Positions 835-7,069 of a stretch of 64,000 nucleotides of DNA are shown in pieces. The notes under the pieces were generated by a model. It had not been told where the DNA came from and did not search any database. It saw only the letters and a program-made list of their open reading frames with translations. The DNA lies in sequence record OQ990040. One strand, 5' to 3'. Numbering within the stretch: position 1 is the first letter of the stretch; each line of letters starts with the position of its first letter. The position numbers and the translations under genes are program-made. Source of the stretch: Escherichia phage SUT_E520.

Positions 835-896
835 ATATGTTATGGATGAGTGATCAAAGAGACACACATTTTCTATATACTAGGAGGTGTCAAAAT

Positions 897-1886
897 ATGA
901 CAGAAGAAGTAGCTAAGAGTCCTGAGACCGTCGCTAGCGTTGCAGCAGAACTGCACCGTCACGAGGAATCAGATAAGAAAAAGTGGGAGAAGGTCAGAGC
1001 CTACGAAGAAAAACATCGTGAACACGATGATGAAGAAGAAGATGACGATGATGAACATTGTCATAAATATGGAAAACATAAAATGCAAGAACCAGTAAAC
1101 GTATTCACTAGTGGCTTCCCTGGCCTACTGGGTGGTTACCCAGCAAACGCAGGTGCTTTCGGTGGTGAAGGTATGGGACTATTCGGAGCTATCCTAATCG
1201 GTGCTCTATTAACCGGCGGATTCGGTGGTTTCGGTGGATTCGGTGGACGTGGTGTAGTTGGTGAAGGTACCGCAGTTGATGCAGTACTTCAGAACCAAGA
1301 TACCGCTAGTATTCTAGCAGCTATCAACACTACTCGTACAGAGGCTAACCAGGGTACTGGAGCTGTTTTAAGCGCAGTTAACAATGGTTTTAGCCAGACA
1401 ACCCAAAACCAGAGCCGTGATACTCAGTCTGTACTAACTACGATCTACGGTACAGGTGCTAATCTGTCTAATCAGATCTGCCAGGAAACTCGCAACGTTA
1501 TTCAGGGTCAGTTCGATCTTTCTCGCCAGATTGATCAATCTTTCGCAGCTAACCAGATAGCTCGTGCACAAGATAAGTTTGATTCTGCACAGATCGCTTT
1601 CCAGCAGACTTTACAAACTAATAACCAGTTTGCCGCTGTTCAGGCTCAGATGTGTGCTAACCAGAACTCTCTGGAACGTCAGATCGCTGAATGTTGCTGT
1701 GAACTTCAGACTGCGATCGCTGGTGTAACTACTGCGCGTATCCAGGATGAGTTAGACGCATGTCGCCTACGTGAAGCAATCGCTGCGGGTAGCGGTGCTA
1801 ACGGTCAGGTAATTAATCAAATCGCTTTAAGTCTTGGTGCTATCACTCAGACTCTGGCTGGTCTGCAGGCTAAACTGCCGGCTTAA
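897..1886 (+). CDS. hypothetical low-complexity protein: acidic/His-rich N-terminus, Gly-zipper hydrophobic segment, Gln/Asn/Thr-rich C-terminal region with Cys clusters
   Basis: ORF track 837..1886; ATG at 897 follows RBS TAGGAGGTG; segments HREHDDEEEDDDDEHCH, GLFGAILIGALLTGGFGGFGGFGG, ECCCELQ. Confidence 0.7.
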   Translation: MTEEVAKSPETVASVAAELHRHEESDKKKWEKVRAYEEKHREHDDEEEDDDDEHCHKYGKHKMQEPVNVFTSGFPGLLGGYPANAGAFGGEGMGLFGAILIGALLTGGFGGFGGFGGRGVVGEGTAVDAVLQNQDTASILAAINTTRTEANQGTGAVLSAVNNGFSQTTQNQSRDTQSVLTTIYGTGANLSNQICQETRNVIQGQFDLSRQIDQSFAANQIARAQDKFDSAQIAFQQTLQTNNQFAAVQAQMCANQNSLERQIAECCCELQTAIAGVTTARIQDELDACRLREAIAAGSGANGQVINQIALSLGAITQTLAGLQAKLPA

Positions 1887-1907
1887 TATTAAGGGGAGGA
1901 GCCCATT

Positions 1908-2324
1908 ATGAGTAAATATGGTTTTGTAAATAACGGACTTAATCAAAGTATGGGCTCCCAGCAGCCCATTCCGGGTCTGGATAACCCCTACTTACAACAG
2001 TTGCAACAGCGTTTAGCAGAAGCGCAACAGATGCAGCAACAACTCCAGCAAAACCCTGGAAGTGTGAGTCCTATGCAAATGATGCAGCAAATGAGCGGGC
2101 AGTCGCAAATGCCTCAACAAATGCAGCAACAGGTGCCTCAGCAGCAAGTTCAGCAACAAACCCAACAACCGCAGGTTTCTGCGGAAGGACAGGCAGTACT
2201 AGCCCTTTTCGAAGACTTCGCAAAGACAGAGGATGGGAAACAGCTTGTATCACTTATGGGTAAGTTTAATAGCTTCTGCCAAAGCCAAGTTGCAAAAGCT
2301 CAAAATGGGGGTAGTAACTCCTAA
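1908..2324 (+). CDS. hypothetical glutamine-rich protein
   Basis: ORF behind RBS AAGGGGAGGAG; long Q-rich stretches (QQLQQRLAEAQQMQQQLQQ, QQMQQQVPQQQVQQQTQQPQ). Confidence 0.7.
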   Translation: MSKYGFVNNGLNQSMGSQQPIPGLDNPYLQQLQQRLAEAQQMQQQLQQNPGSVSPMQMMQQMSGQSQMPQQMQQQVPQQQVQQQTQQPQVSAEGQAVLALFEDFAKTEDGKQLVSLMGKFNSFCQSQVAKAQNGGSNS

Positions 2325-2333
2325 GGAGGAAAT

Positions 2334-2528
2334 ATGTGTTGCAGAAAATCTGTTTCGTGCTGCCCAGTGCCTGTAGCACGTTGTTGCTCTCCAGCAATGT
2401 TTACGCAAATACCGGCGTTCAATCCCTTTGCCTTTAAGCCTACTCTTATCCTGCCCCCTAGAGTAGATTTTCAGTCAAGATTGGCCTCCCGTATGGGTGG
2501 TTGCTGTACACCGAGAGTATGGTTCTAA
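2334..2528 (+). CDS. hypothetical small cysteine-rich protein (four Cys-Cys dyads)
   Basis: 64-aa ORF behind RBS TAAGGAGGAAAT; CC dyads at residues 2-3, 9-10, 17-18, 57-58. Confidence 0.6.
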   Translation: MCCRKSVSCCPVPVARCCSPAMFTQIPAFNPFAFKPTLILPPRVDFQSRLASRMGGCCTPRVWF

Positions 2529-2540
2529 ACCAAAAACAAA

Positions 2541-2574
2541 AGCCCCTGCCGAAAGGTAAGGGGCTTTTTCTTTT
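2541..2574 (+). terminator. intrinsic terminator ending the plus-strand cassette
   Basis: GC hairpin AGCCCCT...AGGGGCT followed by TTTTTCTTTT. Confidence 0.7.
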
Positions 2575-2580
2575 GCCTTA

Positions 2581-2619
2581 AATACAGAAAAGCCCGCGCT
2601 CTCGTAGGAAACGCGGGCT
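2581..2619 (-). terminator. intrinsic terminator downstream of the SPFH gene
   Basis: Hairpin AGCCCGCG...CGCGGGCT with a T-run on the minus strand. Confidence 0.6.
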
Positions 2620-2643
2620 TGGTTCGAAGATTACGTGTAACTA

Positions 2644-3591
2644 TTACTTGTTACGCATATCCATGATCATTTGACCATCGTAGCCAGTACCTACCACAGT
2701 CTGAGGTACACCACCTTGATACTTCTGAGCACGGATCATTTCAACTTCCAGTTGTTTCCAACGAATCATTTCAGGAGTAATGGTACGTTGCAATGCGGCG
2801 TTAGCTTCAGCTTCTTTCTTAGCTGCGTACAGTTTAGCATCTGCGTCACGTTCATTAGCAATAGCTTGGTTGTTACGAGCTTCACGATCTGCTTCTGCTT
2901 GTTTAACTTTTTGCTGTGCTTCCTGTTCAACGCGAGCAAGTTCAGCTTTCGCAGCATTAACTTGCTCTTCACGAACTTTGGTATTCTGTACCTGTTCCAT
3001 GATTACTGGCGGCAAGGTAATATCCTGAAGGAATACCTGCTTAACTGTGTAACCATATGGGCGCGCATACTCTTCAACTTCCTGTTGAATTGCAGTTTGC
3101 AATTGAGCCTGAATTTTAGCATCAAATAAATCTTGTGCTTTAGGTACAGACTTACCAAACTCACGAATAGTAGACAGTAATTTTTCAGTTACATACTTGT
3201 CTAGTGCCTGATCCTGAGTACCTGCGTTAATACGGTTAATCGGTGCTTTAGAACCATCAAACTGCAACATAACAGTCAGGTCAACAGTGGATTTAAACTT
3301 ATCCTGGCTAGGAACCTGAAGTTTATCTAATTTTACAGCAATATCTTTTGTACTAAAAGTATCGAAAGATGCAAACGGGTTTACAAGATGGAAGCCCGGC
3401 AATACTGGATTAGGGTCTACTTTACCCAGGAATGTTTGGGTTTTAACCGTACCATCAGAAACAATAGTATATGAATTAAAAGCTAGGATTAAACCTGCTA
3501 AACCAACTACAGCACCAATACCCCAACGTTTAATAGTACGAATTACTTTCTGCTCAGAAGTCAGTTCTTTCATATTTTTAGTAGCAAACAT
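2644..3591 (-). CDS. SPFH/band-7 (prohibitin/HflKC-like) membrane protein
   Basis: N-terminal transmembrane segment (GIGAVVGLAGLILAF), band-7-like core, long charged coiled-coil tail (AKAELARVEQEAQQKVKQAEADREARNNQAI). Confidence 0.6.
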   Translation of the reverse strand: MFATKNMKELTSEQKVIRTIKRWGIGAVVGLAGLILAFNSYTIVSDGTVKTQTFLGKVDPNPVLPGFHLVNPFASFDTFSTKDIAVKLDKLQVPSQDKFKSTVDLTVMLQFDGSKAPINRINAGTQDQALDKYVTEKLLSTIREFGKSVPKAQDLFDAKIQAQLQTAIQQEVEEYARPYGYTVKQVFLQDITLPPVIMEQVQNTKVREEQVNAAKAELARVEQEAQQKVKQAEADREARNNQAIANERDADAKLYAAKKEAEANAALQRTITPEMIRWKQLEVEMIRAQKYQGGVPQTVVGTGYDGQMIMDMRNK

Positions 3592-3625
3592 ATATTTCCT
3601 TTGTTTTAGTTACAGTTAATAAAAT

Positions 3626-3700
3626 TGGCCGAGGTGACAGGATTCGAACCTGCATAAAGGAATTTAGAAGACTCCTGCCTCTCCCTTAGACTACACCCCG
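3626..3700 (-). tRNA. tRNA-Arg (anticodon UCU); CCA encoded
   Basis: Reverse complement folds as acceptor CGGGGTG/CACCTCG, anticodon stem GGAGT/ATTCC with loop CTTCTAA, T arm GCAGG-TTCGAAT-CCTGT, 3' GCCA. Confidence 0.75.
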
Positions 3701-4202
3701 TTTAAGTATTTTTAAGAACTCTCGTAAAAACTCTTAAAAATACAGACGATACCGGGAGAGTCATAAGTCTCACTCATTAAGTATTTCAAGACAAAATACA
3801 GTAACGTCTATTATTTTCCAGTTTAAGTCAGGGTGACTTAGTGGTTATGTCCTGCGGTATATTGAGGACTCGGTTAGGCTTGGGGTCATGACTTCCCACC
3901 TTTTGCTGCTACTCAACAGGAGTTATCGCGAATTACCTGTGCTATTGTGCACCATTAGTGACATCTCTCATGTCAGCATTTCCCACTTTGTGGATAGCTT
4001 GAAAAACTACTCCGATATGGAGAAAGAACTTCACTATCCTAGAATACCTTCTAAAGTTCTTCTTTAGCCTGGACATAGTTAAATCGTAATAAAACTATTC
4101 AGCAGACTGGTTGGTTAGTCTGGAACCAACTACCGCGTGGTTTAGGCAGTGCGCAACTAACCTCGGAAGCTTTTATGTTAAAAGCATCAGTTATCCAGTT
4201 CT

Positions 4203-4274
4203 TACCGACCGTAGGATTCGAACCTACATCTTCCACCAGTTACGGCTTGATAATACCAATTATACTAGGACGGC
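4203..4274 (-). tRNA. tRNA-like element, possibly degenerate; anticodon not resolved (CGU is one possible reading)
   Basis: Perfect T arm GTAGG-TTCGAAT-CCTAC and 6/7 acceptor pairing, but irregular D and anticodon arms and no encoded CCA. Confidence 0.35.
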
Positions 4275-4497
4275 AGTGTTACTACATAAGTGATTTCCAC
4301 ACCCCACTATTTATAAATCAGAGAAGAGTTTAGGGGAGAGGTTTCAGACGCCTCATTTTACACGTTCTAGCCACTAACCGGGATTGCCGCCCCCTGTGTA
4401 CTAGTTTTACAACTAACCCACCGACTCTATTCAATGCGCTCCGGTTGGGATTCTGCACTCAGCGTAATCGGCTCGCTGTTCCCTAATTTATGAATAT

Positions 4498-4526
4498 ATT
4501 ATACAGAATTTATAAGCATTTAGCAA
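4498..4526 (-). promoter_or_regulatory. sigma70-type early promoter (TTGCTA-17-TATAAT)
   Basis: Minus-strand hexamers at 17-nt spacing; transcribes leftward into the tRNA/noncoding region. Confidence 0.65.
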
Positions 4527-4534
4527 ATGAATTT

Positions 4535-4969
4535 TTAGAAAAATTCACTAGCAATCAAAGCAGTTGTTTTACCGTCATAACGTCCGGGAAATTCTGCCTT
4601 AATAGTTTTCATTAATAGAGCTTTGGTAATACCTGGGTTTAATTTAACCAGTTCTGCAAAATACTCACGAATCTGAACCTCAGTCAGTTGACTTGGCTGA
4701 TACTCTTGCAGCATGGAATAAAGCAGTTGCTCATAGTCTACATCAGTAGGAACTTCCATACCAACTTTAATAGCGCGTTGTTTTGCATTTTCTAGAGCCT
4801 TAATCTGAGCTTTCAGATAGGCTACGAACTCGGTTCGAGTAACAATGTCTTTATCAATACGTTGCAGATCACCAATCATGGTCTGAAGATTAAGTGCCCG
4901 TTCCTTATCACCGTGAGTACGTGCTAGACTAAGTAGTCCACGAAGGGTCATTAGAATATTTTCACCCAT
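4535..4969 (-). CDS. hypothetical protein
   Basis: 144-aa ORF; its ATG overlaps the stop of the upstream small ORF (TAATG). Confidence 0.6.
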   Translation of the reverse strand: MGENILMTLRGLLSLARTHGDKERALNLQTMIGDLQRIDKDIVTRTEFVAYLKAQIKALENAKQRAIKVGMEVPTDVDYEQLLYSMLQEYQPSQLTEVQIREYFAELVKLNPGITKALLMKTIKAEFPGRYDGKTTALIASEFF

Positions 4970-5139
4970 TATTTCATCCCCAATGCTTGGTTAAAAGATT
5001 GTTCTGTCATAACTGCTGAGACTTTGGCGAAATCAAACTTTTTAGGGTTCGTAGTTATTTCAGCAACGTTAGAAGTTTTAACAGTTTTCGTAGTACGAAT
5101 ACCGCGAGTGTTAACACCAATAATTACAACTGATTTCAT
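4969..5139 (-). CDS. hypothetical small protein (56 aa, MKSVVIIGVNTRGIRTTK...), absent from the ORF track
   Basis: ATG 8 nt after RBS GAGAGGAAG directly downstream of the 5171..5199 promoter; stop overlaps the next start. Confidence 0.5.
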   Translation of the reverse strand: MKSVVIIGVNTRGIRTTKTVKTSNVAEITTNPKKFDFAKVSAVMTEQSFNQALGMK

Positions 5140-5207: not shown

Positions 5208-5657
5208 TTAAGTTTTAGTGACAACAGGTTTATAGAATGTATGTCCCTTAATCTTAGTTGTTTTCTTAAACTTCTTTGTCCAGTAAGGTTTATCTTTACC
5301 ACTATGGAAGTATAGTGCTCCATATGTAGGATCTTGTGGTAAATCAACGTAGTATATCACTCTAGCTAAATTCTTAGCGGTTTGCCAAGCCTCATCAGTT
5401 TTATCAACTTTTGGTCTCTTAGATACCCAAGAGAACTGGTTAGACTGATATACTACTTTACAGTAGGAATCTGGGAATTTACCGGAGTTTACACGGTTTT
5501 TAGTAACATGTGCAATCGCCGTCATTCCCTTTATGCCCTCACCACGACTTTCGAAATAGATATTTTTAGCAATGCAATCTATTTCTTTTGCATCGTGCGA
5601 TGCCTGACTACTAAAGCTGAAGGTAAGGGCAGCTACTAAAAGCAAAGCTGCCTTCAT
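5208..5657 (-). CDS. secreted cell-wall hydrolase, SleB/CwlJ family, with signal peptide
   Basis: ORF track start is TTG; the ATG at MKAALLLVAALTFSFSSQA follows RBS AGGAGT; motifs NIYFESRGE, AIAHVTKNRV, VVYQSNQFSW. Confidence 0.65.
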   Translation of the reverse strand: MKAALLLVAALTFSFSSQASHDAKEIDCIAKNIYFESRGEGIKGMTAIAHVTKNRVNSGKFPDSYCKVVYQSNQFSWVSKRPKVDKTDEAWQTAKNLARVIYYVDLPQDPTYGALYFHSGKDKPYWTKKFKKTTKIKGHTFYKPVVTKT

Positions 5658-5662
5658 TCTTT

Positions 5663-5980
5663 TTACTCCTGCCAATCATATTCAACACGATTGGGATTTT
5701 CTTTATACCCTAAGTCAAGCAAATCATTACGCATATTTTGCTTAGCTACTGGGTTCGAGGTTACTAGTACCACTTTCTTTGGTCTCTGCCCAAATTCTAA
5801 GAGTAAACGAAGAATTTGATAACCTTCCATACCATCTACAGCCAAGTCATTATCCATATAAACGAAATGGCCGGTGGTATCAGTTTTATTCAGAAACTCT
5901 ACAGCGGCTTCTGGGGTTCGAATGATAATGTCCATTCCGTGAAGATTACGCACATCATCAATCAAAATATGAAAAGTCAT
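5663..5980 (-). CDS. stand-alone CheY-like response-regulator receiver domain protein
   Basis: 105 aa; ILIDD acidic pocket, FVYMDNDLAVDGMEGYQILRLL matching the phospho-Asp region, VLVTS (Thr/Ser), LGYKENP (Lys); no output domain. Confidence 0.55.
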   Translation of the reverse strand: MTFHILIDDVRNLHGMDIIIRTPEAAVEFLNKTDTTGHFVYMDNDLAVDGMEGYQILRLLLEFGQRPKKVVLVTSNPVAKQNMRNDLLDLGYKENPNRVEYDWQE

Positions 5981-6039: not shown

Positions 6040-6430
6040 ATTAGCAAATACATTTTTAAATTGTGAAACTAGTAAACCGATAAACAGCCTAGAGGCGCCA
6101 CAGGCCATATCTTATGAGCCATGTACCTTTGATCTAGGGTTTGAATCATCAACGAATACTTTGCATCTTTTAGCTTTAGAAGTTTAGAAGTTTGAGTTCT
6201 TTAAACTTTTCAGCTTTCATACTTAAATGTTGATCTTTGAAGTTGTGTCGGTAATATCAACGACGCTTTGTTCTTACGTGTCAGCTTAAAAGGCTGGTGT
6301 AATAAACATAATCTCCAATAGATTATACTTTATAGTATGGTCAGCGGTCTTATTTAACCCCGTATTTCAACCGCTGCTGCGAGGTAAGATGCTTGGGCTT
6401 TCGTCTACCGATTTACTAGCTTTTAAATTA

Positions 6431-7069
6431 TTACTCTACTTCAATGAAGGTAGAGGCGTTAGACTCGGACAGAACAAAGTCAACATTTGTTGCAAAGTCC
6501 TGGTATTCCTCGTCATGCTGCTTAATCAACTTCTCCAGTTCCAGCGGATCAATCAAGAATGGAGTATTCTTGAGTTCCAGCAGGTTGAGTTGCATTTTAA
6601 CTTCATCTTCGGAAGTTTTCTTATCACGGGTAGCCATGCTATCCTGCAAACGCTCATATTTAGCATCAAACTGTGCTTTCTGCGTATTAAACTTAACCGT
6701 AGCGGCATGGAACTGCTTACGCATGTTAGCCAGCAGTTGAGCTTTAAGCTCCATAGAACGCTTAGCTTCAATTGCTTCCGCAACAGTCATTTTACGAGAA
6801 CCGATCTCAACGATTGTTTCTGCATTGCTCTTAATCAGAGCAGATTTAATACGATCACGCTGAGACATCATATCCAGCAGAGACTGGAAATCAGTCTTAA
6901 TACGAGTAGACAGATCAGCTACTTCGATTGCAGCGCCAACTACAACCTGGTTTTTATCCTTACCTTCACCAACAGCGATCAGAAGCTGCTGTTCAGTAGC
7001 TTTACGGATTTTAGCTTCCAGAGATTTGATAGTTGCTAGAGCGCGAGTTTTAGAAATACGAGTAGTCAT
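6431..7069 (-). CDS. hypothetical protein, predicted alpha-helical
   Basis: 212-aa ORF behind RBS AAGGAAACAAATA. Confidence 0.6.
   Translation of the reverse strand: MTTRISKTRALATIKSLEAKIRKATEQQLLIAVGEGKDKNQVVVGAAIEVADLSTRIKTDFQSLLDMMSQRDRIKSALIKSNAETIVEIGSRKMTVAEAIEAKRSMELKAQLLANMRKQFHAATVKFNTQKAQFDAKYERLQDSMATRDKKTSEDEVKMQLNLLELKNTPFLIDPLELEKLIKQHDEEYQDFATNVDFVLSESNASTFIEVE

What the first reader, a model, noticed from the sequence alone, without database searches (positions are those of the whole stretch)
2644..3591. SPFH/band-7 membrane protein in a phage early region
The protein has an N-terminal transmembrane anchor, band-7-like core and a long charged coiled-coil tail, resembling HflK/HflC and prohibitins that scaffold membrane microdomains and modulate FtsH protease. 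A phage copy could alter host membrane proteostasis or superinfection behaviour. It is co-transcribed with the tRNAs.
Basis: partly seen in the sequence, partly recalled or inferred. Interest (0 to 1): 0.45.

Follow-up and report, generated by a model that had tools for sequence, protein, structure and literature searches.

The report
Phage T5 SPFH membrane-scaffold protein T5.080
The gene is a real SPFH (band-7) membrane-scaffold protein of a T5-like phage, already annotated as such in public phage genomes and wrongly called "lipoprotein" in many of them; what it does for the phage has not been studied.

Summary
Window 2644-3591 (minus strand) encodes a 315-aa protein. It has an N-terminal membrane anchor (about aa 23-42), a Band_7/SPFH core (Pfam E=2e-17, 64 bits against a cut-off of 23.6), a 75-residue helix, a second helix and a conserved C-terminal motif. 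The AlphaFold model matches erlin, prohibitin, HflK/C, stomatin and QmcA, all of which form cages.

The window is a T5-like phage, and the gene is the orthologue of T5.080. It sits in its own unit: early promoter, RNAX/tRNA-like region, tRNA-Arg, gene, two terminator hairpins.

The SPFH identity is already in GenBank and in a 2006 paper on T4-like phages, so this is not new. What I add:
- The common "lipoprotein" label is wrong, because the protein has no cysteine.
- It is not HflK, HflC or an NfeD-linked stomatin. It belongs to a separate stand-alone SPFH subfamily.
- Charge distribution predicts that the domain faces the periplasm.
- The subfamily is shared at 72-80% identity by T5-like, T4-like and 7-11-like virulent phages, and has chromosomal relatives in Morganella and Providencia.
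- One natural isolate carries an in-frame deletion of the gene, so it is dispensable.

Any effect on FtsH remains speculation. Interest is low to moderate.

The parts
4498..4526 (-). sigma-70-like early promoter (TTGCTA-17-TATAAT), equivalent to T5 promoter P16-17
   Evidence: This is the only minus-strand promoter-like site between 2200 and 4700. The surrounding window 4480-4672 aligns to T5 L002 8563-8755, which overlaps the annotated P16-17 promoter. The same roughly 55-nt element recurs at several places in the related phage NG_S8.
4203..4274 (-). tRNA-like element inside the region equivalent to T5 'RNAX' (stable RNA of unknown function; window about 3701-4484)
   Evidence: Rfam tRNA model, 35.5 bits (gathering 29), E=1.2e-4. 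ARAGORN does not call it. It is annotated tRNA-OTHER in MM-1 and lies within rnaX in T5.
3626..3700 (-). tRNA-Arg (anticodon TCT), 34 nt upstream of the SPFH start codon on the same strand
   Evidence: ARAGORN. Rfam tRNA, 49.3 bits. Annotated tRNA-Arg in T5 and MM-1.
3597..3602 (-). Shine-Dalgarno AAAGGA, 5 nt before the ATG
   Evidence: Read directly from the sequence.
2644..3591 (-). CDS, 315 aa, SPFH/Band-7 protein, orthologue of T5.080 (YP_006908.1)
3466..3525 (-). codons 23-42: single N-terminal transmembrane anchor, preceded by a positively charged N-terminus (6 K/R and 2 D/E in aa 1-22)
   Evidence: Hydropathy and charge counts. The AlphaFold model has a helix at 12-38.
3010..3462 (-). 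codons 44-194: SPFH alpha/beta core
   Evidence: Pfam Band_7 covers aa 52-225. The model has strands at 41-111 and 181-192 and helices at 113-179. Foldseek matches SPFH structures.
2782..3009 (-). codons 195-270: long charged helix (CC1, wall helix of SPFH cages)
   Evidence: Model helix at 195-270, pLDDT about 74-90. The stretch is 70% A/E/K/Q/R. Length differences among homologues are exactly 11 or 22 residues.
2722..2775 (-). codons 273-290: second helix (CC2)
   Evidence: The conserved motif LQRTITPEMIRWK spans the CC1/CC2 junction (aa 267-279).
2647..2721 (-). codons 291-315: conserved C-terminal motif Y-x-G-G-V-P-x-T-V-V-G...Y-x-G-x-M-I-M-D. It is unstructured in the monomer model and is a candidate oligomer cap segment.
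   Evidence: Conservation. pLDDT below 50 in the monomer model. The cap role is inferred by analogy with solved SPFH cages.
2590..2620 (-). GC-rich hairpin plus T-rich tail, 24 nt after the stop codon. It contains the GCGC motif that maps to T5's major 32.6% single-strand interruption.
   Evidence: Terminator scan. Coordinate mapping to the T5 misc_feature at L002 6747/6748.
2532..2569 (.). second hairpin flanked by an A-tract and a T-tract, equivalent to T5's annotated efficient bidirectional rho-independent terminator. It separates the SPFH unit from the convergent plus-strand ORFs.
   Evidence: Sequence read. T5 annotation L002 6679-6721 maps to window about 2535-2577.

Best explanation
The gene encodes a stand-alone SPFH-family scaffold made early in infection.

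Shown:
- It is a bona fide SPFH protein with every module that solved SPFH cages use: N-terminal anchor, SPFH core, long wall helix, second helix and a conserved C-terminal segment.
- It is transcribed in its own short unit, behind an early sigma-70-type promoter and a tRNA-Arg, and is closed by terminators.
- It is an accessory gene. It is nearly universal in E. coli/Salmonella T5-like phages, shared by horizontal transfer with unrelated virulent phages, and dispensable in at least one natural isolate.

Inferred:
- The protein inserts with its N-terminus in the cytoplasm and its SPFH domain in the periplasm, the orientation of HflK/C.
- It self-assembles into a homo-oligomeric dome that fences off a patch of the host inner membrane.
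- By enclosing host inner-membrane proteins it alters or preserves membrane proteostasis and integrity once the phage has shut host gene expression off. FtsH is the textbook client of such cages, but it is only one candidate.

My estimates:

| Claim | Probability |
|---|---|
| SPFH membership | about 0.98 |
| Homo-oligomeric cage or ring | about 0.75 |
| Periplasmic orientation | about 0.7 |
| FtsH is the client | about 0.2 |
For: SPFH identity:
- Pfam Band_7, E=2e-17, above gathering.
- AlphaFold model, mean pLDDT 77, with the canonical order of elements.
- Foldseek hits with probability 1.00 to erlin1/2 (1e-14), prohibitin (4e-13), HflK/C (7e-12), stomatin and QmcA (7e-11), over 270-310 aligned columns, i.e. 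nearly the full length.
- CC1 length varies among homologues only in steps of 11 or 22 residues, as expected for a periodic helical wall.

Stand-alone gene:
- No NfeD, no second SPFH gene and no conserved neighbour in T5-like, Slopekvirus or Aeromonas T4-like contexts.

Orientation:
- All 24 family members carry 1-6 K/R before the anchor. The window protein has net +4 before it and +1 after it.

Early unit:
-.

Accessory but selected:
- 725 phage records carry it. Counts for Salmonella and Escherichia phages (273 and 139) match those of the T5-type tail tube protein (270 and 130).
- It is 72-80% identical in T4-like Slopekvirus/Karamvirus-type phages and in 7-11/SE131-like 90-kb phages.
- Chromosomal homologues in Morganella and Providencia (57-59%) and in methylotrophs (31-41%) sit in non-prophage contexts.
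- Phage NG_S8 keeps only a 55-aa in-frame remnant (aa 1-18 fused to 278-315).
Against: - Nothing here demonstrates oligomerisation, membrane insertion, topology or any client. Only a monomer could be modelled, and its last 24 residues are low-confidence.
- The positive-inside argument is weak for two members with short N-termini (P0117 and P0119) and for the distant bacterial relatives.
- Sequence similarity to HflC is marginal (E=2.6e-3), and the best PDB sequence match is QmcA, which faces the cytoplasm (the QmcA orientation is from my own knowledge of Chiba et al. 2006).
- Dispensability in NG_S8 shows the function is not needed for plaque formation.
- No published experiment on T5.080 was found.
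Confidence: 0.55

Rival explanations
1. Superinfection exclusion. An early, periplasm-facing inner-membrane assembly blocks DNA entry, or channel formation across the inner membrane, by secondary phages. This would be analogous in outcome to T4 Imm/Sp or P22 SieA, and would complement T5's receptor-blocking lipoprotein Llp.
For: - Early expression and the predicted membrane/periplasm location.
- It is spread by horizontal transfer among unrelated virulent phages that compete for the same enterobacterial hosts.
- It is dispensable for growth in the absence of competitors.
- Early phage membrane proteins often have this role (my own knowledge).
Against: - No known exclusion protein has an SPFH fold.
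- Chromosomal homologues in non-prophage contexts in Morganella and in methylotrophs argue for a general membrane function rather than a phage-specific block.
- PADLOC defence models give no hit.
Confidence: 0.18
2. Control of membrane integrity or lysis timing. The scaffold stabilises the energised inner membrane, or restrains holin raft formation, until the programmed time of lysis. This would be a structural counterpart of lysis-inhibition functions.
For: - In Slopekvirus KpCCP1 the gene follows the rI 'lysis inhibition protein' gene and its neighbour. In an Aeromonas T4-like phage it lies about 3 kb upstream of the lysis-inhibition gene.
- Bacterial SPFH proteins are linked to membrane-stress protection, for example B. 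subtilis YdjI, which recruits PspA (PMC8581546, listed).
- T5 and T4-type phages shut off host gene expression, so the host cannot renew its own membrane-maintenance proteins (my own knowledge).
Against: - The tk-rI region of T4-like phages is a hyperplastic region full of unrelated accessory genes, so adjacency is weak evidence.
- In T5-like phages the gene is not near the lysis cassette. Its neighbours are tRNAs and unrelated ORFs.
Confidence: 0.2
3. Counter-defence. The cage sequesters or neutralises host membrane-acting abortive-infection effectors or membrane-embedded sensors.
For: The accessory, horizontally mobile, early-expressed and dispensable profile is typical of anti-defence genes.
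Against: - There is no direct evidence.
- Very high conservation across phages and hosts (62% mean column identity), and housekeeping-like bacterial homologues, are unlike the rapid turnover usual for anti-defence genes.
Confidence: 0.07

Closest known systems
Phage T5 gene T5.080 (YP_006908.1) and its orthologues in Tequintavirus and Epseptimavirus
   Same: It is the same gene. The region is 93% identical in nucleotides to T5 over most of its length (91-93% in the aligned blocks) and the protein is 99-100% identical to many deposited phages. Position is the same: promoter P16-17, RNAX, tRNA-Arg, gene, nick, terminator. Several records already call it an SPFH/band-7 protein.
   Different: Nothing substantive differs. 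The T5 record and PHROG 200 call it 'lipoprotein', which the sequence does not support because it has no cysteine.
SPFH ORFs of T4-like phages (RB43ORF139c, 44RRORF098c, Aeh1ORF064c; Nolan et al. 2006, PMC1524935)
   Same: Same subfamily. Identity is 75-80% to Slopekvirus-, Karamvirus- and RB43-type proteins, about 60% to most Aeromonas T4-like phages, and only about 35% to the most divergent (PX29). Architecture is the same.
   Different: Different phage family and genomic context (the tk-rI region rather than the tRNA region).
E. coli HflK/HflC-FtsH complex (PDB 7VHP/7VHQ, 7WI3, 9CZ2)
   Same: SPFH fold, N-terminal anchor, CC1/CC2 helices and (predicted) periplasmic orientation. Foldseek E=7e-12.
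   Different: About 17-18% identity. The profile E-value to HflC is only 2.6e-3 and there is no NCBIfam hit. There is one gene rather than a heteromeric pair, and no evidence of FtsH binding.
E. coli QmcA-YbbJ (SPFH-NfeD, PDB 8Z5G)
   Same: It is the best sequence match among solved structures (E=1.3e-7) and has a similar length and module order.
   Different: About 20% identity. There is no NfeD partner gene. The positively charged N-terminus predicts the opposite membrane orientation to QmcA (the QmcA orientation is from my own knowledge).
Prohibitin and erlin cages (PDB 8RRH, 9O9Z, 9VVJ)
   Same: These are the top structural matches (E=1e-14 to 1e-12), aligned over nearly the full length. 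Some records label the phage protein 'prohibitin family' or 'PHB domain'.
   Different: They are eukaryotic organellar hetero-oligomers, with 16-19% identity.

Membership tests
SPFH / Band 7 superfamily (Pfam PF01145) | Significant match to the Band_7 profile above the curated cut-off | tested here: met
   E=2e-17, 64.2 bits against 23.6, aa 52-225. All listed homologues carry PF01145.
SPFH / Band 7 superfamily (Pfam PF01145) | SPFH alpha/beta fold followed by long coiled-coil helices | tested here: met
   AlphaFold model, pLDDT 77. Foldseek probability 1.00 to erlin, prohibitin, HflK/C, stomatin, QmcA and flotillin.
SPFH / Band 7 superfamily (Pfam PF01145) | Membrane attachment through an N-terminal hydrophobic segment | tested here: met
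   Single hydrophobic segment at aa 23-42, conserved in 24 of 24 homologues. This is prediction only. Physical membrane association is not testable here.
SPFH / Band 7 superfamily (Pfam PF01145) | Assembly into large ring- or cage-shaped oligomers | not testable with these tools
   Only monomer prediction is available. The C-terminal 24 residues are low-confidence in the monomer.
HflK/HflC modulators of FtsH | Match to the HflK or HflC family models, or close sequence similarity | tested here: not met
   NCBIfam gave 0 families. The family profile against HflC gives only E=2.6e-3 with no stretch passing on its own.
HflK/HflC modulators of FtsH | Two paralogous genes (hflK and hflC) encoded together and forming a hetero-oligomer | tested here: not met
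   There is a single SPFH gene. The neighbours have no Band_7 domain. The same holds in T4-like and bacterial contexts.
HflK/HflC modulators of FtsH | SPFH domain on the periplasmic side | tested here: inconclusive
   Charge bias (net +4 before the anchor, +1 after it) predicts N-in/C-out. There is no experimental topology.
HflK/HflC modulators of FtsH | Physical binding and regulation of FtsH | not testable with these tools
   No computation available here addresses it, and no literature was found.
Stomatin-NfeD operon proteins (QmcA-YbbJ type) | Adjacent NfeD-family partner gene | tested here: not met
   Pfam and PHROG scans of ten neighbouring ORFs show no NfeD. None is present next to the bacterial homologues.
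Bacterial lipoprotein (the label in the T5 record and PHROG 200) | Lipobox with an invariant cysteine at the end of the signal peptide | tested here: not met
   The protein contains no cysteine at all. 20 of 24 homologues also have none. 24 of the 32 bacterial homologues examined have none, and none shows a clear lipobox.
Known anti-phage defence proteins (PADLOC) | Match to a defence-system protein model | tested here: not met
   0 families at E<=0.01.

The most novel reading that the evidence does not exclude
The protein is the prototype of a virus-encoded SPFH nanocompartment. It would be a homo-oligomeric, periplasm-facing cage that large virulent phages (T5-like, T4-like, 7-11-like) exchange among themselves. 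They would deploy it early to capture a specific host inner-membrane target, such as FtsH, a holin, an incoming phage's DNA channel or a membrane defence effector. This would give a viral function to a protein fold so far studied only as a cellular housekeeping scaffold.
Probability: 0.2. Interest if true: 0.65.

Novelty: already known. Interest (0 to 1): 0.3.

Why it matters
SPFH cages have become structurally well understood only since 2022, and their clients in bacteria are still debated. A small, single-gene SPFH protein that phages express early, and that can be deleted, would be a convenient handle on what such cages do. It appears to work without a partner in E. coli, whose genome showed no close homologue in the genome scan. 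The gene is kept in nearly all E. coli/Salmonella T5-like phages and is traded between unrelated virulent phages, which argues for a real fitness benefit. As a sequence finding, however, it is ordinary: the domain assignment is already in public annotation. The practical contribution here is correcting the 'lipoprotein' label and ruling out HflK/C and NfeD-type membership.

Tried and rejected
- **Lipoprotein** (T5 and PHROG label): rejected, no cysteine.
- **HflK/HflC orthologue**: rejected. No NCBIfam hit, marginal profile similarity, single gene.
- **Stomatin-NfeD operon**: rejected, no NfeD neighbour in phage or bacterial contexts.
- **Defence-system component**: no PADLOC hit.
- **Co-transcription with several tRNAs**: only tRNA-Arg and a tRNA-like element share the unit. 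tRNA-Ser at 2-90 lies beyond the two terminator hairpins and the convergent ORFs.
- **Bacterial homologues as prophage remnants**: not supported. The Morganella copy lies among decarboxylase, permease, TetR, ADH and HlyD/ABC-exporter genes, and the Methylophagaceae copy among trpFBA-accD-folC genes.
- **Conserved partner gene across phage lineages**: none found.
- **Literature on T5.080 or phage SPFH function**: five searches and several full-text look-ups found only annotation-level mentions.
- **Oligomer modelling**: not possible, because the structure tool takes a single chain only.
- **Representative search**: the HMM search of 1.84 billion representatives carries no names. It showed only that the subfamily is small, with 1943 hits at E<=1e-3.

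Full report
**What is there**

The window is a T5-like phage. A 3-kb stretch around the finding is 100% identical to Escherichia phages SUT_E420, EC148, T5_ev212 and others (Tequintavirus, Demerecviridae). Over most of its length it aligns at 91-93% identity to phage T5 itself.

The ORF at 2644-3591 lies on the minus strand and encodes 315 aa. It starts at an ATG preceded by AAAGGA five nucleotides upstream. It is the orthologue of T5.080 (YP_006908.1). The T5 record annotates that gene as 'lipoprotein ... contains single transmembrane domain' and as similar to Aeh1ORF064c and 44RRORF098c.

**Checking the observation**

- Pfam Band_7 (PF01145) matches aa 52-225 at E=2e-17, 64.2 bits against a gathering score of 23.6.
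- The only hydrophobic segment is at aa 23-42.
- Residues 200-270 are 70% A/E/K/Q/R.
- An AlphaFold2 model built on a 24-sequence alignment has mean pLDDT 77. It shows a helix at 12-38, strands at 41-111, helices at 113-179, a strand at 181-192, one uninterrupted helix at 195-270, a second helix at 273-290, and a low-confidence tail at 292-315.
- Foldseek against the PDB returns only SPFH assemblies at the top, over 270-310 aligned columns: erlin1/2 (1.4e-14), prohibitin 1/2 (4.5e-13), HflK/C (7e-12), stomatin, QmcA (6.8e-11), flotillin and major vault protein.

The description 'N-terminal anchor, band-7 core, long charged coiled-coil tail' is accurate.

**Transcription unit**

On the minus strand the only promoter-like site between 2200 and 4700 is TTGCTA-17-TATAAT at 4526-4498. 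By alignment it falls on T5's annotated promoter P16-17. The same roughly 55-nt element recurs at several places in a related phage, as T5 early promoters do.

Downstream of the promoter, in order:
- the region that T5 annotates as stable 'RNAX', which contains a tRNA-like element at 4203-4274 (Rfam 35.5 bits);
- tRNA-Arg at 3626-3700;
- 34 nt later, the SPFH start codon;
- 24 nt after the stop codon, a GC-rich hairpin at 2620-2590;
- a second hairpin at about 2569-2532, flanked by A- and T-tracts, which corresponds to T5's 'efficient bidirectional rho-independent terminator'.

Beyond the terminators are three convergent plus-strand ORFs (837-2528). The window's other tRNA (tRNA-Ser, 2-90) is therefore in a different unit. 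'Co-transcribed with the tRNAs' should read 'co-transcribed with tRNA-Arg and the RNAX region'. This is inferred from layout and from the T5 annotation; it was not measured.

**What it is not**

- Not a lipoprotein. The protein has no cysteine, so it cannot have a lipobox. 20 of 24 diverse homologues also lack cysteine, and so do 24 of the 32 bacterial relatives examined. The label in the T5 record, in PHROG 200 and in many derived annotations is a propagated error.
- Not HflK or HflC. NCBIfam returns nothing. The family profile reaches HflC only at E=2.6e-3, against 1.3e-7 for QmcA and 8.6e-5 for prohibitin-2. There is one gene, not a pair.
- Not a stomatin-NfeD module. None of ten neighbouring ORFs has an NfeD or a second Band_7 domain. 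The bacterial homologues have no such neighbour either.
- Not a known defence protein. PADLOC gives no hit.

**A distinct, phage-travelling subfamily**

tblastn finds the protein in 725 phage records.
- Counts for Salmonella (273) and Escherichia (139) phages match the counts obtained with the T5-type tail tube protein (270 and 130). The gene is therefore close to universal in E. coli/Salmonella T5-like phages.
- The same protein occurs at 75-80% identity in T4-like phages of Klebsiella, Enterobacter, Cronobacter and Citrobacter (including RB43ORF139c), and at about 60% in most Aeromonas T4-like phages.
- It occurs at about 72% identity in the 90-kb Salmonella phages 7-11 and SE131.
- It also occurs on uncultured contigs of roughly 78 to 154 kb.

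A profile search of 1.84 billion representatives finds only 1943 proteins at E<=1e-3 and 343 at E<=1e-10. That looks small for so widespread a superfamily (my judgement).

Chromosomal homologues exist in Morganella and Providencia (57-59% identity) and in methylotrophic Gammaproteobacteria (31-41%). Their contexts are ordinary, not prophage:
- Morganella: decarboxylase, permease, TetR and ADH upstream; HlyD and a C39 ABC exporter downstream.
- Methylophagaceae: trpF-trpB-trpA-accD-folC upstream.

The species-representative genome scan produced no E. coli or Salmonella chromosomal hit. The phage therefore appears to bring an SPFH type that its host lacks.

**Structural detail bearing on mechanism**

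The most conserved blocks are VPSQDKFK, EFGKSVPKAQDLF, PYGYTV..VFLQDITLP (the classic end of the SPFH domain), ANERDADAKLYAAKKEAEAN, LQRTITPEMIRWK and Y.GGVPQTVVG..Y.G.MIMD.

Six of 24 homologues have insertions in the long helix, and each is exactly 11 or 22 residues. That is three or six helical turns, as expected if the helix is a periodic wall element whose register must be kept.

All modules used by solved SPFH domes are therefore present. The conserved, hydrophobic C-terminal motif is disordered in the monomer model. It is the natural candidate for the segment that closes the dome in an oligomer. This is an inference by analogy with the structures found.

**Orientation**

Every family member has K/R residues before the anchor (1-6). 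The window protein has 6 K/R and 2 D/E in aa 1-22, against 2 K/R and 1 D/E in the 15 residues after the anchor.

By the positive-inside rule the N-terminus stays in the cytoplasm and the SPFH domain is exported. This is the HflK/C orientation and the opposite of QmcA (orientation of the E. coli proteins is from my own knowledge of Chiba et al. 2006). I put this at about 0.7. The signal is weak for two members and for the distant bacterial relatives.

**Dispensability**

Epseptimavirus NG_S8 (LC788711) retains only a 55-aa ORF in which residues 1-18 are fused in frame to residues 278-315. The anchor, the SPFH core and CC1 are deleted. A phage isolated from sewage thus lacks the protein, so it is an accessory function.

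**Literature**

Nolan et al. 2006 already listed SPFH/Band 7 Pfam hits for 44RRORF098c, Aeh1ORF064c and RB43ORF139c (PMC1524935). Several GenBank records of T5-like phages call this protein an 'SPFH domain-containing protein'.

[quoted passage not shown] A 2026 paper says the reason SPFH genes occur in phage genomes 'remains unclear' (PMC13239085). I did not check whether either of those two proteins belongs to this subfamily.

I found no functional study of T5.080.

**Most likely mechanism**

I commit to the following. An early-made, stand-alone SPFH scaffold inserts N-in/C-out. It assembles into a homo-oligomeric, periplasm-facing dome. It encloses a patch of host inner membrane together with whatever host proteins are in that patch. 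This changes or preserves inner-membrane proteostasis and integrity after host gene expression has been shut off.

| Step | Status |
|---|---|
| Fold and module content | shown |
| Early unit | shown by layout and T5 annotation |
| Accessory but selected status | shown |
| Orientation | inferred |
| Oligomerisation | inferred |
| Client | inferred |

FtsH is the best-known client of such cages, but nothing here points to it specifically (about 0.2). Rival explanations that the data do not exclude:
- lysis-timing or membrane-stabilising role (0.2). The only hint is proximity to rI in T4-like phages, and that is a hyperplastic region;
- superinfection exclusion (0.18);
- counter-defence (0.07).

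**Verdict**

The HflK/C-FtsH interpretation is an untested analogy, and the feature is already in public annotation. Interest is 0.3: it is an ordinary finding attached to an open, and now structurally tractable, question.

Noticed in passing
window 2590-2620: The first hairpin after the SPFH stop codon contains GAGCGCGG. By alignment it coincides with the site that the T5 record marks as the major 32.6% single-strand interruption (consensus Pu-GCGC). The nick site therefore sits in the stem of a terminator-like hairpin.
   Followed up: partly
window 837-2528 (+): Three convergent ORFs have no Pfam match and correspond to T5.077-079. One is a 349-aa protein with an acidic stretch, a GGFGGFGGFGG glycine run and a Gln-rich C-terminal half (phrog_8119). 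One is a 138-aa protein very rich in Gln (phrog_7894). One is a 64-aa ORF with three CC pairs, eight cysteines in all. Function is unknown.
   Followed up: partly
window 5208-5675 (-) and 5663-5980 (-): An early-region 'endolysin' is in fact a SleB-type Cell Wall Hydrolase (Pfam Hydrolase_2, E=4e-25) with an N-terminal signal-peptide-like segment. The gene just upstream, whose 3' end overlaps it by 13 nt, encodes a cREC_REC (cyclic-phosphate processing receiver) domain protein (E=4e-15). It is a second predicted periplasm-directed early product, about 1.6 kb from the SPFH gene.
   Followed up: partly
window 4203-4274 (-) and 3701-4484: A tRNA-like element scores above the Rfam tRNA gathering score (35.5 bits) but ARAGORN does not call it. 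It lies inside the stretch that T5 annotates as the stable 'RNAX' of unknown function. Relative to T5 the window has about 150 extra bases at 4328-4479 and lacks about 65 bases.
   Followed up: partly
L066 (Escherichia coli phage NG_S8, LC788711) 2962-3129: A natural in-frame deletion of the SPFH gene fuses aa 1-18 to aa 278-315 and leaves a 55-aa remnant. A 66-aa ORF not present in the window sits between tRNA-Arg and the remnant.
   Followed up: yes
L005 (Flagellimonas marina NZ_JBHSCL010000010.1, 178,077 bp contig); P0028 (named 'plasmid' of Klebsiella pneumoniae, 174 kb): Contigs the size of T4-like phage genomes carry the phage-type SPFH gene (74-78% identity) but are filed as bacterial chromosome or plasmid sequence. 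They are probably phage genomes co-assembled with, or contaminating, bacterial assemblies.
   Followed up: no
window 6431-7069 (-) and 6389-7039 (+): A 212-aa ORF (phrog_1491, labelled 'tail fiber protein', no Pfam hit) lies in the early region. It is almost fully overlapped by a 216-aa antisense ORF, which is probably a chance ORF.
   Followed up: no
window 4535-5139 (-): The ORF labelled 'tRNA amidotransferase' matches only the YqeY-like family, weakly (E=3e-3, below gathering). The adjoining 56-aa ORF is a DUF7616 protein (E=5e-33). Both lie just upstream of the promoter of the SPFH unit.
   Followed up: no
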